Shown: positions 1,427-63,809, counted from the stretch's first letter. The stretch is 64,000 nt of DNA from Squalus acanthias (GCA_030390025.1 CM059445.1:58032001-58096000), one strand, 5' to 3'. Numbers and translations are program-made. Notes: a model not told the origin generated them from the sequence alone.

Positions 1427-1613
1427 TTGGTGTCAGCCTGGATTTTGTGCTCAAGTGTCTGGAGTGGGGCTTGAACCCACAACCTTCTGACTCAGAGATG
1501 AAAGAGCTATCACTGAGACAAGGCTGACACCTAATTAGGACTTGAATCTCTCACTGAATACCTTTAAAATCTCAGATATAATACACTCCAGTCTGACTGT
1601 TTAACATAGCAAC

Positions 1614-1905
1614 CTTGATATGAAGATTCTCATCCACGAGTATGTTTGCAGGCTTCAGATCCAGGTGAAGTAGGGGTGGGTTCATACTGTGCAGGAAATT
1701 CATCCCCATTGCCATCTCATGAATAATCCGGAACTTCATTGGCCAAGTTAACGTGTACCTGACGAGCAGTTTATCCAGGGAGCCATTCTCCATGTATTCC
1801 ATTACAATCCCAGCCGGTCTGGTACAAATCCCATATATTGGCAAAATATACTTAAAGTTCATTTTCAACATCTGTGCTGCCTCCTCCACTAGATGTTTCA
1901 TGTTC
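1614..1905 (-). CDS. ANKK1: ANKK1 coding exon 2 (kinase subdomains III-VIb)
   Basis: Acceptor TGACAG|G; [12 protein letters not shown]...[18 protein letters not shown]; phase-0 donor AAG|GTTGCT just before the expected DFG exon. Confidence 0.9.
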
Positions 1906-3613
1906 CTGTCACAAGTTAATGAGAAAAGATTGTTGTAATTATCAATTTCCCGCAGTAATCCTACTGTAACTCACTCGTTCGCAGGACTTGAACTATTAGC
2001 TTCCCCATTTCCCTGACCATCTTCAGGTGTTTAAAACCCAAGTGAGCTTTGACTAAACACAACTTGAGTTACCTATTCCCTCCTGCTCCATTCAGTCTTG
2101 GTCACGTTCTGCCCAGTAAGCCTTGCCTCTGCAACAAGGTTTCTCAATTTTTCTCCAGACCTGTACATTCATATACGAACATACGAAAATGATGGACAGG
2201 CAGAAGACCTACTGGTCCATCCAGCTTTTCCCACAGAGCCATGTAATGCCTTCTGCATCACAATACAGACACTCCCCACCCCACCCCACCCAGAGCCATG
2301 TAATCTCCTGGGAGAGGCAAAAAAAAAAGATTTTAAAAAAACCCAGGCCAATTAGGGAGAAGGAAAAACCTGGAAAATTCCTCTCCAACCGCCTTAGTCG
2401 ATCGAAACTAGCCCAGGAAATCACATTGGCTCTGCTTTACATTACAGGATGCCCACCTCTTGTACAACATGATCTCCGCCCAAGCCAGAAACAGGTCCAG
2501 CTCTCGCTTGATGGAATACAGCGAATCGGCATCCACCCAATAAGCCGACAGCCTGTTCCACGGGTCTGCTATTCTCTGGGTAAAGAAGAACCGTCCAACA
2601 TCTATCCTAGTTCTGCCCTTACGTAACTTGTAAGCATAAGCCCTGGTCCTCACTATGATTCTACGACAGGGATTTACTGAAGATCACCAGGGTCTCACCA
2701 TTCAATGATACAGCACTGATAAAGTGTGCAATTGTGCCATCAATCTCAACTATTATTGAGAAGTCGCACAACACCAGGTTATAGTCCAACAGTTTTATTT
2801 GAAATTACGAGCTTTCGGAGCTCTGCTCCTTCGTCAGGTAAAGTTGAAGGAGCAGCAGCTCTGAAAGCTCATAATTTCAAATAAAACTGTTGGACTATAA
2901 CCTGGTGTTGTGCGACTTCTCATTTTTGTCCACCCCAGTCCAACACCGGCATCTCCGCATCATGTCAACTATTATTAGCCAACAAATTATGTAAACGTTC
3001 AATCTCTACAGGATATAGTAACAGGCAAATTCTTCCCCTTAACCAGATCTATTAACTAAGAACCACTTAATACTTAATGCATAAATAATACCAACCAGGT
3101 TTAGCTGCTGTTTATTGATTGCCAGTATTAATTACCAGTTTATATCTCCCTAAAAAGTATTCGTTTATCATGATTTAACTTTGATCATATTGTCTAGGAT
3201 TGAAAAAAAGACTTGCATTTCTATAGCGCCTTTCACGGCCATCGAACGTCCCAAAGCGCTTTACAACCAATGAGGTACTTTTTGAAGTGTAGTCGCTGTT
3301 GTAATGTAGGAAATGTGACAGCCAACTTGCTTTTGGTTGAATAGTCTATATAACAGAGTGTGCCACGGGGAGCTCGATTCACACCGTTAGCTGCAATCCC
3401 TGGTACCCACCTTTCAAACGAAGACGATTCTTCACACAACAAATGGCAGCACTTCACAGCCAGGTTCACCCTCCACAGTTTGTGTTTTGCTTTGAAGACG
3501 GTTGCGAACCCTCCCGAGGCAATCTTGTGGAAAGACACAAAGTCGTCCTCCGTGAAGCAGTTGACTGCGGCGCACGGTGGCGGGAGGAAAGGGTCCTGCA
3601 GCTCCCCGGCCAT
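1614..3613 (-). CDS. ANKK1: ANKK1 (RIPK-family ankyrin repeat and kinase domain protein), first two coding exons; gene continues off the left edge
   Basis: Exons 3411-3613 and 1614-1905 splice in phase (AG|G = Arg), 495 nt total. Kinase motifs [40 protein letters not shown]1 rather than RIPK4 is inferred from its position downstream of TTC12 on the same strand (conserved NCAM1-TTC12-ANKK1-DRD2 cluster). Confidence 0.85.
2165..2655 (-). mobile_element. CR1 LINE 3' fragment
   Basis: TRAYAYKL...[14 protein letters not shown]. Confidence 0.7.
2758..2964. mobile_element. Hairpin-shaped Penelope-like mini-insertion (inverted pLTR) with hammerhead core, in ANKK1 intron 1
   Basis: Imperfect inverted arms ~2758-2832 and ~2845-2921 plus a ~40-nt tail; 12-bp TSD TCAACTATTATT at 2746-2757 and 2965-2976. 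Confidence 0.75.
2805..2841 (-). ncRNA. Minimal type I hammerhead ribozyme motif
   Basis: Minus strand TTAC-CTGACGA-A-GGAGC-AGA-GCTCC-GAAAGCTC-GTAA; stem I UUAC/GUAA is a compensatory variant of the 14.6-kb copy. Confidence 0.7.
3411..3613 (-). CDS. ANKK1: ANKK1 coding exon 1 (kinase subdomains I-II)
   Basis: ATG at 3613; MAGELQD...[28 protein letters not shown]...SSFE; donor AG|GTGGGT. Confidence 0.85.
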
Positions 3614-14099: not shown

Positions 14100-14227
14100 C
14101 TATGGATCGCAGTGATCCTTTGCTTTGAGTCTGTGGAATACCAAGAGATACAGAACTGCAGACGATATAAGGGCGATGGCAAGCAGTGACCCCATAAACA
14201 TCATGCCAATCTTCAGCGCAGTCAACC
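14100..14227 (-). CDS. ZP-C mucin gene exon 6: transmembrane helix and short cytoplasmic tail
   Basis: Acceptor CTTTCTCTCCTAG|GG (phase 1); LTALKIGMMFMGSLLAIALISSAVLYLLVF then basic HRLKAK, DHCDP, TAG. Confidence 0.8.
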
Positions 14228-17200: not shown

Positions 17201-20200
17201 ACAGTGACTCCACTTCAAAAAGTAGTTAATTGGCTGTAAAGTGCTTTGAAATGTCCAGTGGTTGTGAAAGGCCCTATATAAATGCAAGTCTTTCTTTTAG
17301 TCCCACTCCCCCGCTCTTTCCCCAGAGCCCTGCAATTTTCTCCCCTTCAAGTATTTATCCAATTCCCTTTTGAAAGTTACTATTGAATCTTCTTCCACCG
17401 CCCTTTCAGGCAGTGCATTCCAGATCACAACAACTCGCTGAGTAAAAGAAAAATTCTCCTCCTCTCCCCTCTGGTTCTTTTGTCAATTACCTTAAATCTG
17501 TGTCCTCTGGTTACCGACCCTTCTGCCACTGGAAACAGTTTCTCCTTATTTACTCTATCAAAACCCTTCATGATTTTGAACACCTCTGTCAAATCTCCCC
17601 TTAACCGTCTCTGCTCTAAGGAGAACCGTCTTCTGTTATTAAACACAATCTTCTTAACAAGAAACAGGCCTGACATTATTATTTCTGGAATACTGAAGGA
17701 AGTTGCAGAAAGTGTATGAAAAAGAAACAAAGAAAATTGCTAACAAGGAAATACCAGGTGCGCCATTATCAACTCGATCCTCCATTGCACGGTGCAGCGG
17801 GCCAAAGGACACCACATTGCCAGTGTCTCTGTAACCACCTCTGATGGTCTCTTCCATATGATATGGAGTGGGTTCCGAGCAGCCCTTTAAAGAAAAGAGC
17901 AGAGGATTACACTGAATTTAACGCACAATCGATTGTACCTCCCAACAGAAGCTTCACTGTGACTGTGCAGAAGAACAAACTTGTATTTATACAGAGCCTC
18001 GTCACAGCAAGAGCGTCCCAAGGTGCTTCACAGAGGGGATTATCAGACAACATTTGGGACCAAGCCAAATAAGGAGACATTAGGACAGATGACCAAAAGC
18101 TTGGTCAAAGAGGGAGATCTCGGCGATCTTGGAGAGTTGCATCTCATTATTTTTTAACAACATGACTTGGTCAGAAAATCTTTGAACTGGTGCAGTGGAT
18201 TAGCTTCTGTAGCGACCCATCATTGGCCTCCTCTGCGCCTCCCATTAGCGCCTCCGGGGGGCGATAAAGGGGCGCTAAGGGCTTACTGACCGGGCGCGGC
18301 GAAATTACCGACGCCCGCGAACTTCCACGGCAGGTTAGCGCTGGCGCTAAAACTTACCGCCTCGCTCTCCTGCGCCCCGGAGATCGTGACGTCATCCGGT
18401 GCGCAGCGCCCCGTTATCATCCCGGATGTAAAATCCGCTTCCGCGCCCCTGCAGCATCGCCGGGCGTCAACAACGGCAGCCGCAGGAGGCGTTGTCACCT
18501 CGGCCGGCCGCTTGTGGAGCCCTGATTAAAGGCAGTGGTGGTCAGGTCGGCCAAGATTTAATAATGTCCCCAGCGTGCTGCATTTTGATTTTTTTCTCCA
18601 GCCCGTGATTGATTAGCCCTGCGCTCTCTCAGAGTGCTTGGGGCTGCAATGCGCGTATCGCAGGTGCCGTCGATGACCATTCCCAGCCTTGGCCTTCAAT
18701 GACCGCAGCATTGGCCCTTCCCTTTAAGGGAGGGACGGAGCCTGTAAAACCAGCAGCGCTGCACGGGACATTGCGCAGCGCTCTGCTGCTCCCGCCCCTC
18801 TCGCTCCCTTTAGCGCTTGATTTAGCGCTCCAGTTGCCTCTTGGAGCACGAAACCGGAAGTTCCCGTCGGAATCAATTGTGTAGCGCCCGGCGATGTTTT
18901 TGCGCTCCCAGAAAAAGTCATCGCCCCAAACGGGACGCTACGCAATTTCTGGCCCATGGAGTTCACAAGGGAGAAAAGGTGGTTAGATATCGCCATCTGT
19001 TGGACACGTTTGCACATTTAAAGAACCCAGTTGGTAAATAAACAATCATAGAATCATGGAATGATTCAGCACAGAAGGAGGCCATTCAGCCCATCGTGCC
19101 TGTGCCGGCTCTTTGGTCGAGCTATCCAATTAATCTCACACCCTGCTCTTTCCCCATAGCCTTGCAATTTTCTCCCCTTCAACTGTTTATCCAATTCTCT
19201 TTTGAAAGTTACTATTGAATCTGCTTCCACCACCCTTTCAGGCAGCGCGTTCCAGATCGCAACAACCCGCCGTGTAAAAACATTTTGCTCATGTCGCCTC
19301 TGCTTCTTTTGCCAGTCAACTTAAATCTGTGTCCTCTGGTTACCGACCTTTCTGCCACTGGAAACAGTTTCTCTTTATTTACTCTTATCGAAACCATTCC
19401 TGATTTTGAACACCTCTATCAAAATTCTCCTTATCCTTCTCTGCTCTAAGGAGAACAACTCCAGCTTCTCCATCCTCTCCACATAACTGAAGTCCCTCAT
19501 CCCTGGGACCATTCCAGTAAATCTCCTCTGCAGCCTCTCCAGGGCCTTGACATCCTCCCTAAAGTGTGGTGGCCAGAATGCCTGATCAAATCCTCACTCC
19601 CACTAATCTGGAAGCAAAAACGGATTTTTCTTCAGAAATTATGTCCCAACAAGATACACAAATAATTCTTGGCCACACCCCAATGATATCAGAAATATCT
19701 TTCTGAAGACAGACACTTAATGCGATGAAATGCAACTCACCTTAATACAGTCAGAATAGTTTCTCAGGCAGATGGAAACTTTACAGTGTAGATAGACTGA
19801 CGAGTAATTTGCCATCTCAAAAATCTGAATGGTGAACTTTGCAGCTTGGGAATGTCCGTTTTGGAACAGGTGGACATGTCGACATATCAAAGACCTGAAA
19901 AAGCAATAAAATATTTTAGTGGAACAAATCCAGTTTGTCAGCCGCGTTAGTCGGCCATATTAGTCTTGGGTTTGCTTGGCAGTGGAGGCCTCCCCCCGCA
20001 TATTTTTATCTAAAGGGTCATAAAGTGGCCCAATTCAGGTCACTTTGGCTCCCTGTACCTCCTTGGTCTGCTAATCTGGTCTCCTTGTAGTGCGATCTGA
20101 GAAACATCTCAGAATGAGTCATAAAATGGACCTAATCATAACAGTTTAAGAGAATTACATAGAATTTACAGCACAGAAACAGGCCATTCGGCCCAACAGG

Positions 20201-23200
20201 TCTATGCCATTGTCCAGGCTCCACACGCGCCTCCTCGCACCCCTCTTCATTTGACCCTATCAGCATTGTAGTTTGCCTCTGCTATTTTTCGTGCTCACCA
20301 TATTAAGAGATGTCATTACTGGGAAATGAACACAGTTCCCTTTATTCCCAAGCTCATGTAGGGGAGGTATAACATAGGTTGGGTGGAAGGTAAATCTTAA
20401 CCAGTAGAGAAATAATCCCTTCACTGTACCAGTGTGAATTTCCATTTCCCAAATCAACTATTAATTTAGCCTCGCTGAGTGACACCTTCAAATAGTTCCA
20501 AAAAATGGTCAGTTTTGTGCTATTGAGTCACATCCACAAGAAACTAGTTGAATTGCTCAACACAAGCACGGTGGACCGAAAGGCTGCCTTCTACATCAAA
20601 ATTTCTGAACGTGGAACTCGCTACCACATGGAGTAGTTGAGGCGAATAGTATAGATGCATTTAAGGGGAAGTTGGATAAACACGAGGGAGAAAGGAAGGG
20701 TATGCTGATAGGTTGAGATGAAGGAGGGTGGGAGGAGGCTCATGTGGAGCAGAAACACCAGCACAGACCAGTTGGGCCGAATGGCCTGTTTCTGTGCTGT
20801 AAATACTGTGCAATTCTATGGGGGGAAAATTCGGTTGTTTTGCGCCTCCCGTTAGCGCCCCAAGAGATCACTAACGGGGCGCAAAGCAGCTAGCACCCGG
20901 GCGCGGCGATGTTAGCGCCGCTCGCAAAACTGACCAGTCGTTTTGCGGCGGCGCTAAACACTACTGCCACGATCTCCTGCGCCCGCAGATCATGACGTCA
21001 GTCAAGCGTGCAACGCCCCGGTAGCGCCCCAGACCGGATATTGAGTCGCCGCCACTGCCTTAGCGCCTGCCGTTAGGAACGACAGGTAGAGGGGAACGTT
21101 TTCAAGTCGGGAAGGGGCTGAGGGAGCGCTATTTAAAGGCGGGCGCTTCCTGACTTTTCTTGTCGGCAAAATTTTTGGTTTTAACGCTGTCCTAAGGAGT
21201 TTTGGCCCTCAGCACCACTTTTGAGGTTCCTACGTGCCGAGCTCTTTCCGTGGGCCTATCCATTAGTGCTTCCAACACAATTGCTTTCAAGGTCTCTCCA
21301 GGCCGAGATTCAAGGCTGCAATGAGCAGGGTGTGGCTGGCCAGCAAGTTGGCCCCTCCCCTTTAAGAACTGGACGGCGCCAGTCTGTCTGGCTTCCATGG
21401 TAACGGACATCGCCTGAGCTTCGGTAGCATCCTGAGGTAGCGCCTCGCTCCCTGACGTTTGCGCCTTAAGAGAGGTGTGTAGCGCCTGATTTAGTGCTCA
21501 AATCACCTCCAGGGGCAATAAAGGCCAATTTTGCAGTCGGAGGCGATAATTAGCGCCAGGCGCTAAACTTTGCGCCCGGCCGATATTAGCGCCCCGAAAT
21601 GGGCGATACTGAATTTTCCCCTATGATTTTATATTGCCGTCATTGTCATATCTGACAAGATAATGCCCAATACCAGCACTGACTACAGAGCAGAGTTAAT
21701 GTTAAATATCTAACCATTATCATCCACTGAATAAATGGATACCTAACCCATCAAATAACATAAAATGATTGAGCAACATGTTACCCTATTTCCCTTAGCA
21801 GAGAGGTCAATAACCAGGAGCCATAGATTTAAAGTAATTGGTAGTAGGATTAGAGGGGAGTTGAGGAGAAATTCTTTCACCCAGAGGGTGGTGGGGGTCT
21901 GGAACTCACTGCCTGAAAGGGTGGTAGAGGCAGAAACCCTCATCGCATTTAAAAAGTACTTGGATATGAACTTGAAGTGCCGTAACCCACAGGGCTACGG
22001 ACCAAGAGCTGGAAAGTGGGATTAGGCTGGATAGCTCTTTTACGACCGGCACAGACACGATGGGCCGAATGGCCTCCTTCTGGGCCGTTATTTTCTAAGA
22101 TTCTTTGTGTTATATTTCTGGATTATGCAAAGCCACTTGTGAACTGGGTACCAAAGGGGCAAGAGTAACAAAAGTGCACATTAATTATTCAATGGTAGAA
22201 GCTAACTGATTAATACACTGCCAGGTGTGGAACTGAGACGCACAGACCAGGACGGTCCCAGTTTCTATCGCCAAGGCTAATCTCAGCTAGGGTGGCAGGA
22301 CAGGCACTACAATCGGTCTCAGTGCCCCTGGGTTAGGAAGGGCAATATTCAGCCAAGCCTCCCACTCCTGATCACGATCCAGTGATGCCTGCTGGAAAGC
22401 GTTTATGAAGAAAAAAAGAAAGGACAGACAGACAGACAGACAGAAAGAAAGAAAGACTTGCATTTCTATAGCGCCTTTCACGACCTCAGGATGTCCCAAA
22501 GCACTTTACAGCCAATCAAGTACTTTTTGAAGTGTAGTCACTGTTGTAATGTAGGAAACGCAGCAGCCAATTTGCGCACAGCAAGCTCCCACAAACAGCA
22601 ATGTGATAATGATCAGATCATCTGTTTTAGTGATGTTGTGGGTTCAAATCCCACTCCAGAGACTTGAACACAAAATCCAGGCGGGCACTCCCAGCGCAGT
22701 ACCGAGGGAGTGCTGCACTGTCGGAGGTGCCGTCTTTCGGATGAGACGTTAAACCGAGGCCCCGCCTGCCCTCTCAGGTGGACGTAAAAGATCCCATGGC
22801 ACTAAAACAGAACTGGACTTGGTAATGAGGGCCCCCTCCCTCCACACACTGTCAAATAGCTTCCTGATCCTTGTGGTCTACGCTCACACATGAAGAATAG
22901 CCTTGTGGAATTGTATCGCTGTATGAGTTAGTGCCATGGCAAGGAGGGGGGAGAAATTATTTTCTGATAACCCAGTGACATCTTTTATAAACAGACTCGT
23001 CCGATTACCTTACCTGGTAAAAATGCAGCAGATAGTATTGGATTCTTCTGGTCTGGATGTTGGTGACAGACAGCAGGATGGCAGGGCCAATATAACACGG
23101 CTGCTGTTGGTTTCGAGAGCTACAGTAACATAAAGGTCTTCCTGTGCATTAAGAAGATCGCCAGGCCTTAGCGGCCTTTGTAAGCCAAGATTCATACGAA

Positions 23201-26200
23201 CCACATAATTCCCACTCCCACAGTTATCATCAGACACATGCCCGGTGCTGCAAAGAGTAGGAAAACACGGGAGATTACTTAAGTATCTTTTCACCCCCTT
23301 CCCCTAAGAACGTTATTTTGTTTTGCTAATCAATGTAATTACCCATTAAGAGTAGCACTAGAAGTTAAAATGAATTCCTTGTTCTAGCTCCAGTCTTTTG
23401 GACCTATTGGAACCAGACTTTGGAGAAACCATTGCCATGAATTCATACTCTGGTTGGCTCCAAGATGTCTCTTTCTCCAACCGAATGGTTAATGGTGTTG
23501 CAGGGGTCCAAGACCTTGGGCCTCCAGAAGATCTTAAAGTCACTGCAGTTGTTAATAAAGTGAGAGGGCTCCCATGTAAGGTTGGTGATGAGGAGGCGCT
23601 GCGTAAATCTGTACGATTCATTAGTCCTGGAGTGTCAAGCACGGTTGGAGTATTGACACCACCTTTGTCATTTCTTCTCAGATTAGAACGTGTGGCTCTT
23701 TGAACTGAGGTGGCCCCATTCGGTTCCACTGGAGATCTGCTTGGCTCTGGAGAAGATTGGCTACTGTGTGTTGGAAAGTGTAAAAGATTTGTAGGTTTAT
23801 TTGTCTGCTCCAAGTTGGAGTGTTCTTCTATCTGAGCTGGCTCTGCATTTAATAGAGCGATTGCAGTGTTCTGCTTTGGGGCTGAATAGGCCAGGGTTTC
23901 AGAATACTTGAAAAGTGTTGAATCAGTTTGTGAAGCTCCATCATTTCTAGTCCCACGTGGAGAATGGACACCCGCTTTTCTCTGAATTTTATGAAGAGTT
24001 ATTGTGCGCTCAGGTGACCAAGAGATTGATTGCTTTATATCATAGTCATGTTTTGTGCCCTTATCTTCGTTCTCTTTTGGTGTAGCCCTGTTATTTACTC
24101 TTGACTTCCCTTGAAAAGCAGTTGCTTGCTGGTCACTCTGATTGCTTCTATATTCCTCACTTTTGTAAGTTCTTGATAAAACACTATCAGAACTCCCTTC
24201 GCTTGTAAGCGTTACCTCTTCAGTCTCATCTGCCTTAAATGGCTTTGGACGTGTGATTGTTTCTGGGCTCTGTTTAGCTCTGGATGCATTAAGGAGCTGA
24301 TTTAGTGACAAATAAGAAGCTTCAGAAGGTTGGGACACATCACCTTGTGCCAAAGAGGGCAGCGGTGATGGGTTAAGTGCAGAAAGTTTCACAAATTGCG
24401 GCGTTTTTACAGGCATCCATCTAGCTGCTGGGGACAATGTGGGTGCTGAAAGTGGTTCTTGTACTGCACTAGAAATTGGCGCTGATCGATAGAGAAGAGA
24501 AGCAAACGAACGCACCAGAGCGCCAAGACCTTTGTCTGATGAGGTTGTCAAAGGCAGCGCCGTTACAGGAGGGAGAGCTAAATGGCTGTGAAAAATGGAA
24601 GCTAATTTTGTTGAAAAATATTTCCTTCCAGATTCTAAATGACCTGTTAATGCTATGCTGCGTGCTGAAGGTGATTCGGGGATGGTTTGTTGCGCCTGGG
24701 TAGTTCCCGGAGATCCATCCCGAGTTGTTCCATCATTGCTAAAATAATTTATAGGAGCAACTGTTGTGAAAGTAAGTGGCCTATTATTCTCCAATTCAGA
24801 AATAATGGGATTGTGCACTGTGGCAGCTGAGGGGATGGAATTGTTGGATGCAGACAATTTTGTATCTGGAATTATATTTTGTAGTGTTGCTGGTAATAAC
24901 TGTGCTGATGTAACATGTCTCGTGGGCCCAGCTTTAGGAACAGTCTTTGCTTTGTTTTTTAAACTGGCACCATCAAAAGTTGAAGAAGTTTTCAATGAGG
25001 TTGCTGACACATGTTGGGGTGGACCACTCAGTGGACTACTGTGCTGCACTTTAGGGCTCTCCGGGAAAGAAATGGTGTTTTTTGATGAAGTGGAAACCTT
25101 TAACGTTTTTTCCTGGGTTGCTGGAAGAGTGAAAGCGTTGCTTACAGTTGGCCCCATTTCTTTAGACGTTTGGTGCCCATTTTTCCCCTGTGAACTTAAG
25201 AAATGTTCATCCGAAGTCTGAGATAATGGAAGGCTGTCATTATTTTGGGATTGTGTTGACTGACTATTTTCTGTTGCAATATTTGATAAATAAATGGTTT
25301 GGGACTTACTTGCTGGTTGAGGATTAGGTGTGCTTGCAAATATCCTTGGTTTATCCTTGTGGGAGGCATTTTTCACCTTGGAATTGTGTGTATTTCGCAA
25401 AGATGTTTGAAGTATTGAAGGCCCATTTAACAATAATGCTAGCAGGGAAGGCACGACAGTGACATTAATGTTTAAAGATGACGTTGGATCTGAGCTTTCT
25501 GACAAATTGCTATTGGAACCTATAAGTGAGGAGGAAGTTGGAGTTTGCCTGCCTTTCTTCTCCGAGACAGCTGTGACAATAGGACCCACAGACTGATTTA
25601 TGGTCATGCATATAGAGGACGTCAAAAATATTTCTGAAAACAGGGAATGTTGAGCCTTGCCAGAGAGAGTTTTTATCATCATGTTTGACATTTGTTCTGT
25701 GACTGTGTCTCCAGTCTCTTCAAAAGTATCATTAGAAACCATAACAGGTTTTGGCAATGCTACAATTGATCGCTCAGAGACCTCCTGAAATAAAGGGGGC
25801 AGTGAATGAAGGCTCATAGTCATTAAAACTTTGGCAGTATGTTTTGTTGACAGCAGTGGAGTTGGTAAGACTACACTCATTGCAGCTTTGATTGATTTTG
25901 TGGTTTCAGGAGATGTTGCTTTAGGAGTTCGGAATGCCAATGTACTTGGGACAAGAGGAAACTGGTTAGCATCTGTTGTATACTCTTGACCAGGGATAGT
26001 TTTTCCCTTGAAAAGTACACCAATCATCATTGAAACAGCACTGTCTCCAATAAATGGAAACAGACCAGGACTAATGTCCTTGTTATTTGATGGTCTGAAA
26101 GATGCAATTGCTCGCTCTTGTGCTTGGTCCAGTGGTACATTTAAAGCCTGATTAATGGAAGTTGATAGAATTGGAGAGAGATGTAAGTTTTTGTAAGTTT

Positions 26201-29200
26201 TCAATGGAGCTGCTGAGGCATTTCTTCGTGAATTACCTAGTGGCGTTACAAGTATCTCAGCCACGGGTGTTGCATCAGGCAAGGAGTGTGTCATGGTTGT
26301 ATGGTCAGGTACATGTGTCAATGCGCTGAAAAAATCAGCACTGGATCTAGATGTTGTTGTCAGTGGAAATATCATCTGGTCTTTTCTGCTAGAGCTACTT
26401 GAGGTTGTGAACATGTGCAATGGTATCAAACATGTGACATTTACCCTATGGGCAATAGCCATGGTCACACGTGGTGTGGGATTATTGGCTCGTGTGGAAT
26501 GAATGTGCACACTGCTGTCTAATGTTTTTCTCATTTCTACATTGTCCTCTTCTCGATGTGAAACTTTTATCCTTCAGTGTTGTGTCCATTCCATTCTGAA
26601 ATAGGACTGAGATGGAGACAGGTGAGGCAGGAACTATCAGCTCTTCAATGCTTTCCATTTTAGATCTAGTTTGAGAGAGAGTCCGATGCACAAATGGAGC
26701 TGATTTCTCTGTCAGTGTTAATGAAGTTAGCCTCTGTACATTGGCAGATGCAACCTGTGCTTTCTCTTGTGGAGAAATAGTCACCTGCTGGTGTCCCTCA
26801 ATGTCTATCCTGCCAAGAGTGGAAAGAAATGCAGAGGGGACTGTGGCAGATGTTTCTGTGGTAATTGTAGGCTCTGTTGCCAGGTCTTTATTTGTGCTAC
26901 TAGTGATACCTGGGGATTGATCAGACGTAGTCTTTGAATAAAGATGTGAAGTGAAAATCGGGGGCTGGCTAATATTAACTCGAGCAGGAAACACATTTGC
27001 TTTCTCCAAACTAGCAGCTGCGCTGGAGGGTAGACCGGGATCTATGGATTGCCCCAGCTGCATGTTTGTCAATGGCTGTCGACTTTGTTCATTTGGAGCT
27101 GCGGGTGTGAAAGAGATCGCGACCCTTGGCGATTTAGTGGTCGTAAGGCGGTCACGAAAGCCTCCTCCCAATACAGTAAGTACATTCCCCGAGCCAGAAA
27201 TTGATAGGGGTGAACTGGTAATCTCCACAACAGGGTTGGTTGTCTCCCCAAGTCCTTCAACATTTGAGGCTTGTGCCCAGCCCGAAGCAGCAGCAGGGGG
27301 CAGTAATGAAGACAAGTTATGAATTGTAGGCGATGATACAATGTCCCCTTTTGCAGTAGAATCAATTGGTTTAGTTATCTCTGTGGTGCTCACCATGAAC
27401 ATGACAGACAATGGCTTTTGTGTCGGAACCATGGTGCTGTCACTGAAGTTTAGCTGCTGCAGTATCTTTGTAAAATGATTTTTAGGAGGCTATCAAAGGA
27501 GTTAGGGCTTTTACTGATTCTAATGAGGAGGAAGACAACGGTGGACTTACTGAACTCCTTTCATTTATGTTTAACATGTTAGTGATTTGGTTTGTCAATG
27601 GTGTTGCCCTGGAACTAAATTCTTCATCTATTATGTCTGCCGTGTGCACTGTAGTTCCTCCTGACTGGTTTGGAGAGATCCCACTTGCAGATGTTGGAAA
27701 AGTCCCCGCTGCCATTTTAACCAAATGCTCATCTTCCGCCTTAACTGACGGAGGCGTTACAGAATGTGCTCGGTGCCCTGTGGTAATTCTGAAAAGAGAC
27801 TGGTTCCTGTCATTGCTGAAGTGAGTAATGTTTTCAGAAACTGCAGGCTTTGAACAATGGGGCAGCAGCTATATGTGACGGCGATTTGGGGGTAGGTCCT
27901 AATTCTTGGGAACTGGTCGATGTTATAGTGAAGATTGGAAACTCAGGCGGCAAATGTGCTGCCTGGCCAGAGATTACCGGCGTGTCTGCGCAGCGTTTTG
28001 ACACATCTTGTATTTTTAGAACCGTTGATGATTCTGTAAAACGTCTTGGCCTCCATGTAGCGGACAGGAATTGAGTTCTCGCTGTAGGCGAGCCATGAGT
28101 GCTTTTGTGTGCGCCTGATTCAGAGTGACTGTTAGCAAGACTGCAAGAAGTCTGTGTTACAGGTAAACTAACCGGACTGTTGAGGAGGGCTCCATTGACC
28201 AGGAGGGGAACTGCAGTTCTTCCTGCCCCATTTGACAGTCTAGAGTTTTCAATGTTACTGATTCCCACATCCGATTGTACTGTGTCCATTTTAGTGCTTG
28301 GCTGCAGAGTATCTGAAGTCCTTTCTGTTGTTGGGGGACTCCTAATAATTATTTTAGGAGTTTGATTGCGTCCTACAGGTCGAGCTTCCACATCTGGAAG
28401 ACCACGAGAGAAAGTGGCCATTGATTTATTTAAATCGTCAATATCCAACTCCTGATGACTTGCAATTGCCGGGATCAACAGAGAAGGCGGGACAGAATTA
28501 ATCTTGTTTTCTTTAGTTGTGTTTGGAATTTGTTGAGTGACTAGAACTTCATCTGATGTCACAGGGCCCTTGGGTATATCTAATAATGTAACACCTGTGA
28601 TAAATCTAGAGGAAGCTGATTTAACCATTAAACTCTGTGCAGTTCTTCTTTTCATCACTGGCTGTGATGTGAGACTTAAGTTCCTTGCTCTTGTTGGACT
28701 TAAACTTTTGAAATCAGAGGAAAGAAAGTTGTCTCTTGCTGGGCTCAAACTTTTTGTTTCAGGGAAAAGAAAAGCTGCTGATAGTTTTGACGTGAAACTC
28801 AAGCCTCTTGTCTGAGCTGCAGTCGATTCCTCATTTGGGAAAGAGAGAGTCATTTCTTCCAAATGGCTGGCTGGCCTTACATGCGCGGCTTCACCCGTCA
28901 GTTCATTTTCACTCTCAAGAAGTCTAACCTCATTCTTATTTGTGGTCACAACATTTGCAGGTTTCGGTGCCAACGTTGAATATCTAGGCATGAACAAGGG
29001 TGTTGCACGCACTGATTCTAGAGGCACCGTAGCTGCTGTTGTCAAAGGCAGCAAAATATTTTGGGAAGAATTAGCTGAGATTAATGCACGTTTCTGTAAT
29101 GTTACTGGTTGAATTGTCTTTGTAATTTCAATACCATTAGGTGTCAAATTCACATTTTCTTTTCCTGTTGGCCCTGAAAATATTGATGCCAATTTTGTGT

Positions 29201-31093
29201 TTCCAGACACTGTGGTCCCTATTGGCATTGACTGCTTAATTTCTTCTCTTCTGCTAGAAGTGACGACAAGTGATATTGGAGGAGTAACTGTTAGCGCTAA
29301 TAAAGGACTCTTTTCACTCAGCTCGAAGGAAGCTCCGATTGCTTTTGGTGTGCGTTTCTCACGTGATGCCACTGATTTGCTGCTTTTGAACAACAGCACT
29401 GACGCCCCCTGATTCACTGCCTGGCTCTTCAGCTGCCCACTGGCATCTCTACCCACTGCCTGCGATGGTGATGAAGTCTGCGTTGGCTGTGGATCTTCAG
29501 ACATTGGTTGCGTGGATGTTACAACAGATCTGTCTTTACTGAGCATCTTTGCTGAGATGCCCAAGCCTTCATCTGCAGGAGTTTCTTTGGCCAGTCCAGG
29601 CATTCCATTTGGGGAAGTGCTGAGGCCTTGATCAACTGTTGGCGTCATTACGAAGGATCTAGCCCCTAAAGGGGAATTGGATAAGCTTTTGAAGTCCTTT
29701 TGCACCTTTCTGACCGAATACTTTGATATCTCCTTTGTGGAAAACATGCTATCTGAAGCTGGTCGGTTGGTTTTCATGTTAAAACTCATCAGATGCTTTG
29801 GTATTTCTTGTCCAAAAGATGCTTTAAGGTTTTCATTTCCTCGGACAGTTAATTCAGGAGTTATTGAAGGAACATTTTCATCAACTAAATATTTTGCAGA
29901 TGTAAAGGGATGCTTTTCCGTAGTCATTTGATCAATTCCAGTTTGGGGTTCGCTTTGTTTACCATCAAAATAACTGGAGGCAGACTTTTGAAAAGTAGTT
30001 GCATGAGATTTTGCAGGTAAAGGGAGTGCCAGATGCAGTGACAGTGTTGCTGCTGTGTCTGAAAGGTCCTTTGGCTCATCTGAAAGGTCTGTTGCTTCAT
30101 CTGACAGCCGCAGAGTTTCACTAATGGGGACTGCAGTGGGCAGCAATGATGAAGAGCTAATGTATCGCAGAATAGACATGTGTTTTTGAGACCAATAAGG
30201 CACATTAAGTCCTTCTGTCAATGTACTGTTGTGTTTGGAGCCCCAGAACGCTGATTGATTTCTTTTAACACCAGAAGTACTTGTCACTGCTGAAGAGAAC
30301 GTTTTATATACGAGGGTATTGTGGTTTTCATTTCCTTCTGCACCTGGTAAGTACAACACAGCAAATGAATTACTTGAAGTTTCATTTTCTCACGGCATAG
30401 TAACCTTTCTAAACAAAATCTGTCTGAGACAGTTTAAGATCAGGAGCAAAGTAGCAGGGGAATAAGCCAGCAGCAGTGATCCCAGCCAACATGCCACTAG
30501 CTAATGTAGTCAGAGCTCTTACGTTCTCCAGCCCAACGGAGCCACAAGGATTCAAGATCAAATTGTCTCAATCTTTCATCTTGGATTTCTCCCAGTGAAT
30601 GGACAGAAAGGCAAAAAAAAAAGAAGTGCTTTGTAGAGCACCTTATCTCACCTCTCAGAAAGATCTGTTACCATTCTTCATGCAAGCCTAAAAAGAAAGA
30701 CTTGCATTTATATAGTGCATTTCACGTCCCAATGTCAGGACGTCCCAAAGCACTTCACAGCCAATGAAGTACTTTTAAAATGTGGTCACTGCTGTAATGT
30801 AGGAAATGCAGCAGCTAATTTCCGCACAGCAAGGTCCCACAAACAGCAATGTGATGATGACCAGATCATCTGTTTTAGGTGTTGGTTGAGGGATAAATAT
30901 TGGCCCCAGGACACTCTAGGTCAAAATAGTGCCGTGGGATCTTTTACATCCATCTGAGGAGGCAGACGGGGCCTCGGTTTAACGTCTCATGTGAAAGACG
31001 GCACCTCCGATCGTGCAGCACTCCATCAGTACTGCACTGGAGTGTCAACCTGGATTTTATGCTCAAGTCTCTGGAGTGCGAGTCGAACCCACA

Positions 31094-31124
<31 letters not shown>

Positions 31125-34100
31125 TCTGAGCCACCGTTAACACACAACTAACACAGCCTACACAGTGAATGTCAGCAGGCTACTTGACCACATCTGGCAA
31201 CAGGACCATGGCATTCTCCATCCAAAGTGTATACAGTCTACTCCTCTTAAGTTGCTTGATACAAATAATATGATAATTTAATTATTTTTATTCCTAAATT
31301 CCAACTTTGCTATGTTATTTTCATTGCTTAATTCAAATCATTGGATAATTTTTTTTTTTTTTAGTGCAAAGATCATTGCAAATTTTCAGGAGTAGTCTGC
31401 AATAGCTTAAAAAATACATATCTGTTTGTAAACACTTAACAACTTAATATATTTTTAAGGTATTTATAAAAATTTGACTGAAAACATGATTGATAAATAT
31501 TTAGTTACAAGTTTTCAGGGTCAGTGACAAATCTGTTTAATTCCCGTCGGAATTCTCTTCACATAATGAACCTGGAAGCTTCCAACAAAATACTTTGAGA
31601 TACTTGGGTTGCCTTTTTGGTTTACTGGAACTGTTATGTTGTGATGGATCTTTCCTGCAGAATAAGTCTCAACAATATTTTTTTCCAATTTGTCTGAAAT
31701 TAAACAAGATAATGGAAGTTTGATTTCAGTGTCTTACTCCAGCAGTGTGGAAACTATTTCAACAACAACTTGCGTTTCTACAGTAGTAAAACCTCCCAAG
31801 GTGCTTCACATGAGCGATTATCAAACACAATTTGACACCGAGCCACATAAGGAAATATTAGGGCAGATGACCAAAAGCTTGGTGAAAGAGGTAGGGTTTA
31901 AGGAGCGTCTTAAAGGAGGAAAGAGAGGTAAGCGAGGCGGAGAGGTTTAGGGAGGGAATTCCAGAGCTTGGGGCCTAGGCAGCTGAAGGCACGGCCGCCA
32001 ATGGTGGAGCGATTAAAATCGGGGATGCTCAGGAGGCCAGAATTAGAGAAGCGCAGATATCGAGGACTGTGGATTACAGAGATAGGGAGGGCTGAGGCCA
32101 TGGAGGGATTTGAAAACAAGGATGAGAATTTTAAATCGAATAGCATACCAGTACTCATTGTCTAGACTGGTACATGAAAAATGCTCACTTGGTTGAGGCA
32201 CTAGGAGGCGTCCAGTGACCTTGGACCCACAATCCAGTACAAATCAGCATCTTCACAGAATGATATACAGAAGGAGGCCATTCGGCCCATCATGCCTGTG
32301 CTAGCTCTTTCAAAAAGCTATCCGATTAACCCCCTTGCTCTTTCCCCATAGCCCTGCAAATGCTTCCCCTTCAAGTATTTATCCGATTCCCTTTTGAAAG
32401 TTATTATTGAATCTACTTCCAGCGCCCTTTCAGGCAGTTCTGGAATTCCCTCCCTAAACCTCTCTGCCTCGCTACCTCTCTTTCCTCCTTTAAGACGCTC
32501 CTAAAAAACCTACCTCTTTGACCAAGCTTCTGCCCTAATATCTCCTTACGTGGCTCAGTGTCAAATTTTGTCTGATAATCGCTCCTGTGAAGCACCTTGG
32601 GATGTTTTACTACGTTAAAGGCGCTATATAAATACAAGTTGTTGTTGTTGTATTCCAGATCGTAAGAACTCGCAGCATAAAAATATTTTTCCTCATATCG
32701 CCTCTGTTTTTTTTGCCAATTACCTTAATGTTAATCAAGAGTGAATGGGACAGGCCGTTCATTACTTAGACTACAGATTTTACCAGCTTTTCGACCTTGG
32801 TGCATGGAGCTTCACCGGTTTTGGTTGTTGTCTGCTTACACTATTCTCTGAACAAGTACTGCTGTTAAATTACTCTCAGAAACAAAAGAAAGCTGGGTCA
32901 GTATCTATTCTCAGGAATTGCTTTGCTATGGCTGGAAGTATTTCATTGTAATGATCATTTATTGTTTCCTACTGCCAGAAATAGCTGCTTAGGAAACAAC
33001 AAATCAGAACTTTACCTAATGGAAAAATAAATCAAGTGTTTATTTCAAAACCTAATATGTGGCAGTGTACAAGCTGAAGGCTTTTTTATCTAACAGAATC
33101 TCACTCTGGGTCCAATGTAAACCCACACTCCCTCTTTTTTGTTATGTACCAAGGGTGACCCATCAAGGCTGTTTATTTCTCCACCCCCAAAGTCCTCCCC
33201 GGCTCTCTTGAAGGCATTGGGGCAGAATTAGGACAGTGCCGAAACTGAGCGCTGTTCCACCAGCTCGTCGGGAAGGAGAGGCCCGAGAAACATCCGAAAG
33301 TCCGGAGGAAGAGGGATGACGATCAGGAGGGGGCAAACGCGAGCCAGCAGCAGCCCACGATTGTTTTGTGCGCTCCTGCTCCTCCCGACTCCTCAAAAAA
33401 CAATATTTCCCTAAGGTTTTGGGGCCTTAGGGATCGGTGGTGAGGTCGCTTAAGACCCGGAAATACTAGTCGGAGCTTCTGGGCCCTGGCCCCCACCAAG
33501 GCCACCTAGACCAATTTAGCAGTGGTCCGGACGCCTGTGCAGATTGGGCGCAAGTCGCTGCCTTGATAAATTGGCTATTATTGTGCCTATTTTATTCTTG
33601 TAAAACAGGCGCAACCATGTTGAATTTCTGCCCCATTGACTCTCTTGGTTACAGTTCCAGAGGCACCAACAGCGAGTCAATACCTTATCAAAGTGGCCAT
33701 GCTTTATGAGTGAGCCCAGATATTGAACAGCAATAGGTTTGCCAGGCAGAGCATTGCATCCAAGCAAAAATTCTCTATGCACCCAATATTGATTTACTAA
33801 CAGGAGTCACCAGATACTGAGCAGGAATGGGTGTCTTGGATGATTCCCCGGCACTCCCATCATCAAAAAATAGAGGCAAAAAGTAGCACCCCAATTGATA
33901 GCCCCAATGACACCTGGTAACTCAGCATAGACCGGCAATCAAAGGTATGACCTTCTGGTTTCCTCGGCTCAGTACCAGACCTTGTGGTGCATTTACTCCC
34001 TAAGACATGAGGATATAGAGTTTAACCACACTTCTGTACACCATAATATTTCAATAGGAGACAAAAAACTGGGGGCAAAACCGAGTACAGCACCTACCTG

Positions 34101-34143
34101 ACTGAAGTAACATCCGGACTGTCAACAACAGAAGGATCAGCAT
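14100..34143 (-). CDS. Uncharacterised mucin-like, ZP-C-only type I transmembrane protein (6 coding exons, ~2,527 aa if three frame breaks are corrected; may be a pseudogene or contain assembly indels)
   Basis: Exons 34098-34143, 23449-30343, 23014-23247, 19741-19894, 17755-17884 and 14100-14227 all have GT/AG boundaries with compatible phases (1,2,2,0,1). Domain order: signal peptide, S/T/P-rich stalk, ZP-C, EHP, TM. Confidence 0.75.
14551..14754. mobile_element. Hairpin-shaped Penelope-like mini-insertion with hammerhead core, inserted in a CR1 fragment
   Basis: Perfect 85-bp inverted repeat 14548-14632 / 14640-14724 with a 7-nt loop and 30-nt tail; 12-bp TSD AAGAAAAGAGGA at 14539-14550 and 14755-14766. 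Confidence 0.8.
14605..14641 (-). ncRNA. Minimal type I hammerhead ribozyme motif
   Basis: Minus strand TCAC-CTGACGA-A-GGAGC-AGC-GCTCC-GAAAGCTT-GTGA: CUGANGA and GAAA cores, stem II GGAGC/GCUCC, stem I UCAC/GUGA, palindromic AGCU stem III. Confidence 0.7.
14767..15160 (+). mobile_element. CR1 LINE 3' fragment
   Basis: CR1 ORF2 C-terminus and 3' UTR. Confidence 0.75.
15703..16350 (+). mobile_element. CR1 LINE 3' fragment
   Basis: [19 protein letters not shown]. Confidence 0.8.
16841..17297 (+). mobile_element. DeuSINE inserted into a minus-strand CR1 (16748-17630)
   Basis: Full SINE flanked by TTAGTC on both sides; the CR1 3' UTR is continuous across it. Confidence 0.75.
17755..17884 (-). 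CDS. ZP-C mucin gene exon 5: last Cys, linker and external hydrophobic patch (EHP)
   Basis: TTTAAAG|GGC...CCTG|GTATTT; GCSEPTPYHMEETIRGGYRDTGNVVSFGPLHRAMEDRVDNGAP; VVSFGPL is a typical ZP EHP. Confidence 0.85.
18225..18956. mobile_element. GC-rich Harbinger-like MITE (left end degraded)
   Basis: GCGCCTCCCATTAGCGCC subterminal motif as in the other MITEs; right end GCAATTTCTGGCCC. Confidence 0.6.
19045..19580 (-). mobile_element. CR1 LINE 3' fragment
   Basis: VTRGHRFKL; CATAGAATCATGGAA tail. Confidence 0.75.
19741..19894 (-). CDS. ZP-C mucin gene exon 4: C-terminal half of the ZP-C domain
   Basis: TTTCAG|G...AAG|GTGAGT; SLICRHVHLFQNGHSQAAKFTIQIFEMANYSSVYLHCKVSICLRNYSDCIK carries the ZP-C signatures NG-x-S..F-x-x-x-x-F and VYLHC-x-V-x-IC. 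Not in the ORF track. Confidence 0.9.
20820..21621. mobile_element. GC-rich non-autonomous DNA transposon (PIF/Harbinger-like MITE)
   Basis: Ends GGGGGGAAAATTCGGT / ACTGAATTTTCCCC, 3-bp TSD TAT; same family as 35177-36066 in the opposite orientation. Confidence 0.75.
21787..22105 (+). mobile_element. CR1 LINE 3' fragment
   Basis: Same subfamily as 251-549. Confidence 0.8.
22422..22456. repeat. (GACA)n(GAAA)n microsatellite at a SINE tail
   Basis: Visible tetranucleotide run. Confidence 0.85.
22445..22805 (-). mobile_element. Rearranged DeuSINE (minus-strand tail joined to plus-strand body)
   Basis: 22445-22635 is the reverse tail; 22636-22805 is the forward head/Deu domain. Confidence 0.6.
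23014..23247 (-). CDS. ZP-C mucin gene exon 3: N-terminal half of the ZP-C domain
   Basis: TTTGCAG|C...ACCAG|GTAAGG; GNYVVRMNL...EDLYVTVALETNSSRVILALPSCCLSPTSRPEESNTICCIFT matches the start of ZP-C (IHP-like strand, LYV, C-x-x-(S/T)P). Confidence 0.85.
23449..30343 (-). CDS. ZP-C mucin gene exon 2: 6.9-kb Ser/Thr/Pro-rich mucin-like exon with three +1 frame breaks
   Basis: Acceptor TTACCAG|GT at 30343. Consecutive S/T/P-rich ORFs 27834-30359, 27482-~27860, 26482-~27490 and 23358-~26570 tile the interval. Phase-2 donor CCAGA|GTATGA at 23449 (alternative AG|GTCCAA at ~23404). No recognisable transposon inside. Confidence 0.7.
30692..31143 (-). mobile_element. DeuSINE
   Basis: Same family motifs. 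Confidence 0.72.
31760..32137 (-). mobile_element. L2 LINE 3' fragment
   Basis: STIGGRAFSCLGPKLWNSLPKPLR. Confidence 0.75.
34098..34143 (-). CDS. ZP-C mucin gene exon 1: signal peptide
   Basis: ATG CTG ATC CTT CTG TTG TTG... = MLILLLLTVRMLLQS, donor CAG|GTAGGT (phase 1). Joins the next exon to give LQSGAEG-NENH, a plausible A-x-G signal peptidase site. Confidence 0.65.
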
Positions 34144-62947: not shown

Positions 62948-63809
62948 CTGGGGGGGGGGGGGGGAAACATAAACCCATTAGATCACTGCATTTCCCACAG
63001 CAACACTGACCTTCTGAAGACACAGAACAATGGGGACTCAGGATTGATTACACTGCAGTGGATCTAATAAAACACTTCAGCGAAAATCAGCAACTGCGAC
63101 AGTAACACTCATACAGTAAACGGAACCCCCAAAATGAGAATATAGCCCCCGAAACCACCTCGTTTTATGAATATAAATACTAGCCGACCTCGCCTGGCAC
63201 TGCTCACGTCAAACGATATGCTGTTTTATAAGAACAGCAGCATTATATCGTGACTGTGCACAATGTATTATTCTGTTACTAAGGTGAAGCTATGTAGCCT
63301 TTAAGGCCACAGAGTCTAACTGCTGTTAAGCAAACACTGGGTGAGGTCAAGAGTTCAATTCCTTTTCAGCCTGCAGGTCACAACTGGCTTTCTTTCTCTT
63401 TTTTAATTTGTGATTGGTAAGGCCACTTGACGTAAGAAAACTACTAGGCACTTGGTCTAAGCGTTAAACAAAGCTTTAATCAACTGTTTTTCAACATGGA
63501 GATCTAGTTGTGTCCTTCCCTAGTTCCTGTTGAGGAATGTCCTATGCAAGCTGGGCCCATGCCCAAGTATTTATACTCTCCCTGGACAGCGCCACCAGCA
63601 GGCCGCCCAGTATTACTTCATACATGAATGACAAGCTTCATGTCACCACTTATAATATTATCATATAAACATAGATATAGATACATACTATGGCATTAGT
63701 GAAAAGAGTTTTATTCACGTCTGAAGTCATTTTCAGAGGATTTTTTATAAATTGTACTTTTGAACAGTAATTTGTTTGCCCCACAGCCTAGTTACAGGTT
63801 TGATTTCAT

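What the first reader, a model, noticed from the sequence alone, without database searches (positions are those of the whole stretch)
17755..23247. ZP-C domain without ZP-N and without a furin site: co-receptor-like rather than filament-forming
Seen: no Cys-patterned ZP-N exon upstream; the stalk exon is Cys-poor and only a 201-bp intron separates it from ZP-C. Between the last Cys and the EHP the sequence is SEPTPYHMEETIRGGYRDTGN, with no R-x-(K/R)-R. There are unusual CC pairs (SCCLSP, TICCIF). Known: polymerising ZP proteins need ZP-N and cleavage that removes the EHP; ZP-C of betaglycan binds TGF-beta/inhibin, and TGFBR3L is a rare ZP-C-only vertebrate protein. Inference: a non-polymerising, membrane-retained ZP-C in which a mucin stalk occupies the place of ZP-N, possibly a TGF-beta-family co-receptor or glycocalyx anchor.
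Basis: partly seen in the sequence, partly recalled or inferred. Interest (0 to 1): 0.7.

Follow-up and report, generated by a model that had tools for sequence, protein, structure and literature searches.

The report
Half-ZP membrane protein with sheddable stalk
An unnamed gene of a probable shark, shared with bony fishes, reptiles and birds, encodes a predicted cell-surface protein that has only the second half of the zona pellucida (ZP) module under a 2,300-residue stalk that is likely sugar-coated and likely cut off by a furin-type protease, so it probably coats or anchors cell surfaces rather than forming filaments or serving as a hormone co-receptor.

Summary
The lone ZP-C is real: no ZP-N is found in the locus or in orthologues, and an orthologue's model has the ZP-C fold. 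Two details are wrong. The stalk/ZP-C intron is 95 bp, not 201 bp (one spliced RNA contig). It maps to where uromodulin's ZP-N ends and its linker begins. The gene is single-copy, lies between TTC12 and ANKK1, and has unnamed orthologues in ray-finned fishes, crocodilians, lizards and birds; no mammal appeared among the hits. Its ZP-C is closest to uromodulin/ZPD/GP2, and it lacks betaglycan's TGF-beta-binding helix residues, so the co-receptor reading is weak. Best reading: a non-polymerising, transmembrane-mucin-like protein whose stalk is likely shed, leaving linker + ZP-C on the membrane. Caveat: the assembled copy has four frameshifts that 4 of 4 read sets lack, and one related species has others. 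The scan's index showed only a first-reader note on this same stretch.

The parts
34098..34143 (-). Exon 1: ATG and predicted signal peptide (phase-1 donor)
   Evidence: Predicted from sequence; spliced straight to the big exon it lines up with the N-termini of bird orthologues. No RNA joint seen.
30523..30588 (-). Possible 66-nt frame-neutral exon 2; probably not needed
   Evidence: AG/GT edges; no RNA cover; the bird N-termini fit better without it.
23343..30343 (-). Giant 7.0-kb exon: about 2,330-aa S/T/P-rich, non-repetitive, Cys-poor stalk, the convertase site and the first part of the ZP linker
   Evidence: One contig of run X1 spans it; that allele is one open frame of 2,332 aa, against at most 200 aa in 200 shuffles. 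X6 RNA contigs cover most of 23343-30214.
23379..27846 (.). Four frame-breaking indels in the assembled copy, at 23379, 26564, 27488-27490 and 27846
   Evidence: 4 of 4 runs (X1, X5, X6, X7) read otherwise at each place.
23394..23405 (-). RSKR, strict furin/proprotein-convertase motif, 26 residues before the first ZP-C Cys
   Evidence: kept in the X1 allele; Arg site near the same place in 40 of 58 species.
23248..23342 (-). True stalk/ZP-C intron, 95 bp, phase 2
   Evidence: RNA contig joint 23247-23343, ends CT..AC on the + strand, depth 8, 29 letters on the shorter side.
23014..23247 (-). ZP-C exon 1: end of linker, extra Cys, first strands, both CC pairs
   Evidence: PF00100 E=0.012; 36 family hits plus one unrelated among 1.84 billion representatives; single copy in the genome.
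19741..19894 (-). ZP-C exon 2 (YLHC strand and two further Cys)
   Evidence: PF00100 E=1.2e-6; splice sites predicted and matched by orthologue alignment.
17755..17884 (-). ZP-C exon 3: last Cys, FG loop without furin site (17878-17816), EHP strand (17815-17795)
14100..14227 (-). Last exon: transmembrane helix, about 10-aa tail, stop
   Evidence: Hydropathy peak up to 2.33; frame closes at the stop; splice predicted.
45554..62950 (-). Upstream neighbour TTC12 (six exon matches)
   Evidence: tblastn with the TTC12 part of the emu model P0058.
1608..3580 (-). Downstream neighbour ANKK1 (first kinase exons; ankyrin exon lies beyond the window)
   Evidence: tblastn with the ANKK1 part of the merganser model P0080.

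Best explanation
This is an unnamed jawed-vertebrate gene between TTC12 and ANKK1 that encodes a predicted type I membrane protein of about 2,560-2,590 aa with a lone uromodulin-type ZP-C; its long S/T-rich stalk is likely glycosylated and likely cut off by a furin-type convertase at an Arg site that sits where ZP-N would end, which would leave linker + ZP-C + EHP + TM on the cell surface, where it likely works like a cleaved transmembrane mucin in the glycocalyx or apical matrix and not as a filament subunit. Shown: exon structure around ZP-C, absence of ZP-N, the RSKR motif, family conservation, fold of an orthologue's model. Inferred: glycosylation, cleavage, retention of the EHP, cell-surface role. 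Lacking ZP-N, and keeping the EHP in place, it would be unable to build a uromodulin-type filament.
For: No ZP-N in the locus (control 52) or in 27 family proteins scanned. A full-length owl orthologue matches only uromodulin/ZPD/GP2 ZP-C among solved chains. The model of the Hoplias orthologue (mean pLDDT 69) is ZP-C: the first 16 Foldseek rows are all ZP proteins; Z 13.9 uromodulin, 12.1 ZP2, 10.8 betaglycan, best non-ZP 7.5. Strict furin site between ZP-C and EHP in 0 of 59. RxxR or [KR]R at -32..-14 before the first Cys in 46 of 64 proteins against 7.3% of 1,707 stalk windows (28 of 92 proteins dropped as too short or unanchored), and in 40 of 58 species against 1/56, 2/56, 8/54, 2/53 and 2/52 in shifted windows. 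The first Cys aligns with uromodulin residue 451 and the uromodulin linker starts at D430 (PMC7737619, section 7), so the Arg peak at -21/-20 marks the ZP-N/linker border. Stalks diverge beyond recognition between clades while ZP-C keeps 35-45% identity. One giant exon for the stalk is the usual mucin layout (recalled).
Against: The strict furin consensus is met in only 7 of 58 species; 0 of 3 crocodilians, paddlefish and Dallia lack the looser motif. Species share ancestry, so the counts are not independent. The shark site lies about 6 residues further from ZP-C than the fish/bird peak. The stalk fails a strict PTS test (0 of 223 windows). Uromodulin is cut by hepsin, not furin (PMC7737619, passages), so a missing furin site does not prove the EHP stays; 10 of 59 orthologues have RxxR or a dibasic pair in that loop. 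The shark's own ZP-C was not folded, only an orthologue. The assembled copy is frameshifted and run X7 shows other frameshifts. No tissue or protein data.
Confidence: 0.5

Rival explanations
1. Membrane cap or anchor for ZP filaments. Cleavage frees a complete uromodulin-type linker at the new N-terminus, which is donated to the open EHP groove of another ZP subunit, while the protein's own ZP-C stays shut by its uncleaved EHP. It would end a filament and tie it to the membrane.
For: The cut site maps to the start of the linker (PMC7737619 section 7, where the linker replaces the neighbour's EHP by donor-strand exchange). Linker positions -11 to -2 are conserved (L 54/64, G 53/64, D 60/64), and model residues 18-185 align with the uromodulin precursor. 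The genome holds very many ZP genes.
Against: The position matching uromodulin L435, which inserts into the neighbour's pocket, is mostly Ser (33 of 64). The conserved part could simply pack on its own ZP-C as in the precursor. No partner or co-expression is known.
Confidence: 0.15
2. TGF-beta-family co-receptor. The retained ZP-C binds inhibin or TGF-beta as betaglycan ZP-C and TGFBR3L do; shedding the stalk would unmask a TGFBR3L-sized stub.
For: ZP-C + TM + short tail is the TGFBR3L plan (297 aa; PMC8673766, passages). Betaglycan ZP-C is among the structural matches (E 7.8e-6; Z 10.8).
Against: No betaglycan or endoglin by sequence at E<=1 or E<=10 although they are in the PDB copy. TGFBR3L is about 33% identical to betaglycan ZP-C (PMC8673766) whereas the orthologue's model aligns at 14-17%. 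The FG-helix residues are absent. No TGFBR3 or TGFBR3L among the 28 named of 37 hits.
Confidence: 0.12
3. Uncleaved giant glycocalyx protein. The Arg cluster is a spacer or is cut only rarely; the stalk stays attached as a spacer or lubricant, and ZP-C is just a folded base that supports secretion or dimerisation.
For: Strict furin motif in only 7 of 58 species; none in crocodilians. Most ray-finned fish have an odd number of ZP-C Cys, which could allow disulfide dimers.
Against: The Arg peak is sharp (62% and 70% R/K at -21 and -20, mostly under 15% elsewhere) inside a region that otherwise diverges freely.
Confidence: 0.2
4. In this animal or lineage the gene is a decaying pseudogene: the four indels are real alleles and the gene is being lost repeatedly in sharks, as it seems to have been in mammals.
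For: Four frame breaks in 7 kb against at most about 1.1 expected from protocadherin exons in the same assembly (73 of 106 have ORFs of 770 aa or more; P(>=4)=0.025). RAG1 is intact. 15 of 40 listed substitutions are private to the window. Run X7 (another organism label) has four other indels that give 10 stops when laid on the window's letters (rough, since X7's own substitutions were not applied).
Against: 4 of 4 runs under three organism labels lack the four indels, all of which lie in short base runs typical of consensus errors. The X1 allele is fully open. The gene is spliced in X6. Ten Cys and all splice sites are kept.
Confidence: 0.2

Closest known systems
TGFBR3L (inhibin B co-receptor; PMC8673766, passages read)
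   Same: Signal peptide, single ZP-C-type domain, TM, short tail; no ZP-N.
   Different: TGFBR3L is 297 aa and betaglycan-derived (about 33% identical); this protein has a stalk of about 2,300 aa, an N-terminal convertase site and a uromodulin-type ZP-C without the betaglycan FG helix.
Uromodulin / GP2 / ZPD (polymerising ZP-module proteins; PMC7737619, passages and section 7)
   Same: Closest ZP-C by sequence (E 1.5e-7) and structure (Z 13.9); linker, IHP and EHP are present.
   Different: No ZP-N; no consensus cut before the EHP; Arg site at the other end of the domain; the canonical sixth Cys is replaced and up to five extra Cys are present; TM rather than GPI predicted.
Nematode standalone ZP-C proteins T01D1.8, F46G11.6, CUTL-19 (PMC7456536, passages; PMC7665627, passages)
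   Same: ZP-N lost, signal peptide kept, C-terminal R/K sites mostly absent, disulfide reshuffling.
   Different: Independent origin; those are truncated before the EHP or GPI-anchored, and a giant stalk was not mentioned in the passages read.
Transmembrane mucins with a juxtamembrane cleavage domain (MUC1/MUC16 SEA type; recalled)
   Same: One giant exon for an S/T/P-rich stalk, a folded domain next to the membrane, a processing site, TM and short tail.
   Different: No SEA, VWD or EGF domain; no tandem repeats; S+T only 25%; cleavage would be by a convertase, not autoproteolysis.

Membership tests
ZP-C domain proteins | Match to PF00100 and ZP-C Ig-like fold | tested here: met
   Exon 19894-19741 over the cut-off; orthologue model matches ZP-C structures. 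The shark domain itself was not folded.
ZP-C domain proteins | EHP strand after the last Cys, then a membrane anchor | tested here: met
   Conserved [IV]S[FVL]GP strand in 63 aligned proteins, TM in the last exon.
Polymerising ZP-module proteins (uromodulin, GP2, tectorins, ZP1-4) | ZP-N immediately before the linker and ZP-C | tested here: not met
   the RNA joint ties the stalk directly to ZP-C; control.
Polymerising ZP-module proteins (uromodulin, GP2, tectorins, ZP1-4) | Consensus furin site between ZP-C and EHP | tested here: not met
   0 of 59 strict; a hepsin-type cut is not excluded.
Polymerising ZP-module proteins (uromodulin, GP2, tectorins, ZP1-4) | Filament formation | not testable with these tools
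   Needs expression and microscopy.
TGFBR3 / TGFBR3L co-receptors | ZP-C closest in sequence to betaglycan | tested here: not met
   Uromodulin, ZPD and GP2 found, betaglycan not, at E<=1 and E<=10. TGFBR3L itself was not available for a direct comparison.
TGFBR3 / TGFBR3L co-receptors | Hydrophobic FG-loop helix (A158, I161, W162, M165 in betaglycan) | tested here: not met
   Loop unconserved, Trp in 1 of 63.
TGFBR3 / TGFBR3L co-receptors | Binding of TGF-beta or inhibin | not tested
Transmembrane mucins | PTS domain (S+T>=40%, P>=5%; threshold recalled), usually in tandem repeats | tested here: not met
   0 of 223 windows; no real repeat array.
Transmembrane mucins | Giant single stalk exon + juxtamembrane domain + TM + short tail | tested here: met
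Transmembrane mucins | Heavy O-glycosylation and shedding | not testable with these tools
   Inferred from composition and the Arg site only.
Unnamed TTC12-ANKK1 ZP-C gene of jawed vertebrates | Same architecture, Cys pattern and gene position as fish and sauropsid homologues | tested here: met
   10-Cys pattern in 45 of 63; models fused to TTC12 (emu) and ANKK1 (merganser), and an Arapaima fragment named TTC12-like; tree groups ray-finned fishes (96/91) apart from sauropsids (100/100 branch) with the window between.

The most novel reading that the evidence does not exclude
A 'half ZP module' that is activated from the wrong end: a convertase removes a giant stalk exactly at the former ZP-N border and exposes a free uromodulin-type linker on a membrane-bound, permanently closed ZP-C. 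It would act as a chain terminator and membrane anchor for ZP filaments (tectorin, uromodulin or egg-coat type), a role not found described for any vertebrate ZP protein in the papers searched. It is a fifth gene of the NCAM1-TTC12-ANKK1-DRD2 cluster, kept from sharks to birds and apparently lost in mammals.
Probability: 0.15. Interest if true: 0.8.

Novelty: new variant of a known kind. Interest (0 to 1): 0.55.

Why it matters
Standalone ZP-C domains were long thought not to exist; the described cases are nematode proteins (PMC7456536) and TGFBR3L (PMC8673766). This is a separate vertebrate case, from the uromodulin side of the family, conserved from a probable shark to birds and misnamed in databases as mucin-5AC-like, uromodulin-like 1 or uncharacterised. 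Its processing site lies before ZP-C rather than after it. It gives a natural reagent to test what a ZP linker and ZP-C do without ZP-N, and it adds an overlooked gene to a cluster described in humans as four genes. Zebrafish or chicken orthologues, if present (not checked here), would make it directly testable.

Tried and rejected
Word-based homologue searches with single shark exons found nothing (limited to 2,000 aa); the HMMER search of representatives did. Hit P0037 (subtilase with RTX repeats) is a chance match and was dropped. Laying reads on 22900-42000 was swamped by repeats and gave no splice joint for the 5' exons; exons 1-2 and the three 3' introns have no RNA joint. No listed holder is on record as RNA; X6 is a guess supported by one spliced joint. 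A conserved 110-aa island in sauropsid stalks was tested as a hidden ZP-N: no Pfam ZP-N, no usable atlas hit, no confident fold (pLDDT 40, 8 sequences; inconclusive), and not detected in the shark or teleost stalks. The atlas search of the Hoplias protein gave only generic ZP clusters. The tree's outgroup was too distant to root it. The wide structure search did not run. Complex prediction of ZP-C with inhibin was not available, so there is no result either way. Paper searches that found no description of the gene: TTC12+ANKK1+zona pellucida, 0 papers; TTC12+ANKK1+mucin, 0; ZP domain/gene loss/mucin-5AC-like/uromodulin-like, 0; some searches gave listings with nothing evidently on it (only PMC7177674 was opened). 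The paper on the evolution of the NTAD cluster (PMC3571431) is not held and may mention the gene. No supplements were read.
Full report
Setting. The window comes from a 3.7-Gb vertebrate genome. That it is a shark is my inference from the repeat content and from the tree, where its protein falls outside both ray-finned fishes and sauropsids. The finding is the 3' part of a minus-strand gene between TTC12 (six exon matches at 45554-62950) and ANKK1 (1608-3580, and the ankyrin exon beyond the window at 51% over 397 aa). The first ZP-C exon has one match in the genome, itself.

Gene model. Exons: 34143-34098 (ATG, signal peptide), an optional 30588-30523, 30343-23343, 23247-23014, 19894-19741, 17884-17755, 14227-14100 (TM, stop). 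All introns are GT-AG. As assembled, the 7-kb exon is split over four frames and the first stop falls at residue 874. Contigs of four public runs under three organism labels all differ from the window at 23379, 26564, 27488/27490 and 27846. With those four indels the frame is open for 2,585 aa, or 2,563 without exon 2. One X1 contig spans the whole exon; with all 34 of its substitutions it gives 2,332 aa without a stop, against at most 200 aa in 200 shuffles. Run X6 holds a contig that joins 23343 to 23247, so the intron is 95 bp. Exon 1, exon 2 and the three 3' introns rest on splice signals and orthologues, not on RNA. Exon 1 joined directly to the big exon resembles bird N-termini better than with exon 2.

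Is the assembled copy an error or a dead allele? The indels lie in short base runs, which suggests consensus errors. But protocadherin exons in the same assembly imply at most about 1.1 breaks per 7 kb (73 of 106 with ORFs of 770 aa or more; P of four or more = 0.025), RAG1 is intact, and 15 of 40 listed substitutions are private to the window. Run X7 shows four further indels that would shift the frame over about 230 and 145 bases; on the window's letters they give 10 stops (rough). So the gene is intact in at least one animal of organism A, spliced in organism B, and may be broken in the assembled animal and in organism C. I put a real broken allele at about 0.2.

The observation. ZP-C is confirmed by Pfam. 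ZP-N is not found in 106 Cys-bearing upstream ORFs, in the stalk ORFs, or in 27 family proteins, while the same Pfam family finds 150 ZP-N exons elsewhere in the genome. The RNA joint links the Cys-poor stalk directly to ZP-C, which is where ZP-N has to be. No strict furin site lies between ZP-C and EHP in 59 of 59 proteins; 10 have RxxR or a dibasic pair there.

The 106 bases recovered from the false intron encode RSKR (23405-23394), 26 residues before the first Cys. Among 64 proteins with 150 or more residues upstream (28 of 92 dropped), 46 have RxxR or [KR]R at -32..-14 against 7.3% of 1,707 stalk windows; R/K frequency peaks at -21 (62%) and -20 (70%). One row per species gives 40 of 58: shark 1/1, ray-finned 12/15, crocodilians 0/3, squamates 5/7, birds 22/32; strict R-x-K/R-R 7 of 58; shifted windows 1-8 of 52-56. 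A few misses are gene models that read intron sequence into this place. The owl orthologue aligns to uromodulin 447-583 with the first Cys on residue 451, and the uromodulin linker begins at D430 (PMC7737619, section 7 read). The Arg peak therefore sits at the ZP-N/linker border: what follows it is a linker-length segment plus ZP-C. Cleavage itself is inferred.

The family. HMMER over 1.84 billion representatives gave 37 hits: 36 family members and one chance hit. Of the 37, 31 were looked up and 28 carry names, all ray-finned fishes (paddlefish to perch) or sauropsids, labelled uncharacterised, mucin-5AC-like, uromodulin-like 1, GP2-like and the like. A second search from a tinamou region gave 36 of 36 sauropsids. 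Faulty gene models fuse it to TTC12 (emu), ANKK1 (merganser) or FDXACB1 (stork, godwit), and an Arapaima fragment is named TTC12-like; FDXACB1 lies 5 Mb away on the window's contig. This supports one conserved position. No mammal, amphibian or turtle appeared, but these searches show representatives or need shared words, so loss is only suggested; the human cluster is described as four genes (PMC7177674, passages). ZP-C keeps 35-45% identity across clades while the shark stalk has no significant match to any other stalk.

Cysteines. The CC pairs are family traits, not oddities: the 10-Cys pattern is shared by the shark and sauropsids (45 of 63). Against uromodulin, five canonical positions are kept, the canonical sixth Cys is replaced, and extra Cys lie at the linker end, next to the fifth, as the second CC and eight residues later. 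The last of these never occurs without the second Cys of that CC (46 of 46), and 5 of the 17 proteins lacking it have lost that Cys too, which suggests they pair. The linker-end Cys may take over the orphaned eighth Cys.

Fold and kinship. The shark domain is split over three exons and was not folded. The Hoplias orthologue (mean pLDDT 69) matches ZP-C: uromodulin E 2.5e-7, betaglycan 7.8e-6, ZP2 1.4e-5; Z 13.9, 12.1 (ZP2), 10.8 (betaglycan), 10.1 (endoglin), best non-ZP 7.5. Structure alone does not separate these. Sequence does: only uromodulin, ZPD and GP2 are found. Betaglycan binds TGF-beta through an FG-loop helix with A158, I161, W162 and M165 (PMC11865472, passages); here the loop is polar, variable and has Trp in 1 of 63. 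TGFBR3L may bind inhibin B differently (PMC8673766, passages), so a ligand role is not excluded.

Mechanism. Most likely (0.5) the protein is made as a type I membrane precursor, the S/T-rich stalk is glycosylated, a convertase cuts at the old ZP-N border, and linker + ZP-C + EHP + TM stay on the surface as a closed, non-polymerising unit. It works like a cleaved transmembrane mucin but fails the PTS test, so it is not filed as one. Rivals: uncleaved glycocalyx protein (0.2), cap or anchor for ZP filaments through the freed linker (0.15), TGF-beta-family co-receptor (0.12); separately, a dead allele in this animal (0.2).

Novelty. Standalone ZP-C is known from nematodes (PMC7456536, PMC7665627, passages) and TGFBR3L. 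A 2026 review (PMC13361971, passages) does not contain 'TGFBR3' or 'mucin'. Ten paper searches turned up no description of this gene; the NTAD evolution paper was not held. Verdict: new variant of a known kind, interest 0.55.

Noticed in passing
window 23219-23372: X6 also has an unspliced contig across the 95-bp intron (depth 3 against 8 for the spliced form). Read-through meets a stop at 23341-23339, which would give a secreted stalk without ZP-C; it may be plain pre-mRNA.
   Followed up: partly
window 24954-25433 (run X7, organism C): Four indels (+1, -7, -1, -2) sum to -9 but shift the frame over two stretches; the gene may be broken in that species.
   Followed up: partly
P0027 residues about 655-785 and sauropsid orthologues: A conserved island of about 110 aa with one Cys in the middle of the otherwise unalignable stalk of birds, crocodilians and lizards; not detected in shark or teleost stalks; no confident fold.
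   Followed up: yes
P0058, P0080, P0018, P0073, P0035: Public gene models fuse this gene to TTC12 (emu), ANKK1 (merganser) or FDXACB1 (stork, godwit), or give it a neighbour's name; the FDXACB1 fusions hint at a local rearrangement in some birds.
   Followed up: partly
G000 contigs C1109, C1879, C1945, C2997, C3223, C3278, C9, C3813: Very large tandem arrays of ZP-module genes: most of the 150 scored ZP-C and 150 scored ZP-N matches fall on these contigs.
   Followed up: no
G000 C3:196.65-198.44 Mb: Protocadherin cluster with over 90 variable exons; genome-wide 33 of 106 matches have ORFs under 770 aa, either pseudogenes or assembly errors.
   Followed up: partly
L032 and L033 (G000 C5:90.02-90.04 Mb): Two TGF-beta-family exons with identical C-terminal 135 aa in inverted orientation about 13 kb apart: recent duplication or assembly artefact.
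   Followed up: no
ray-finned fish orthologues: Most have nine ZP-C Cys, leaving one unpaired (11 of 63 rows), and Cys-rich cytoplasmic tails that could be palmitoylated (inference).
   Followed up: partly
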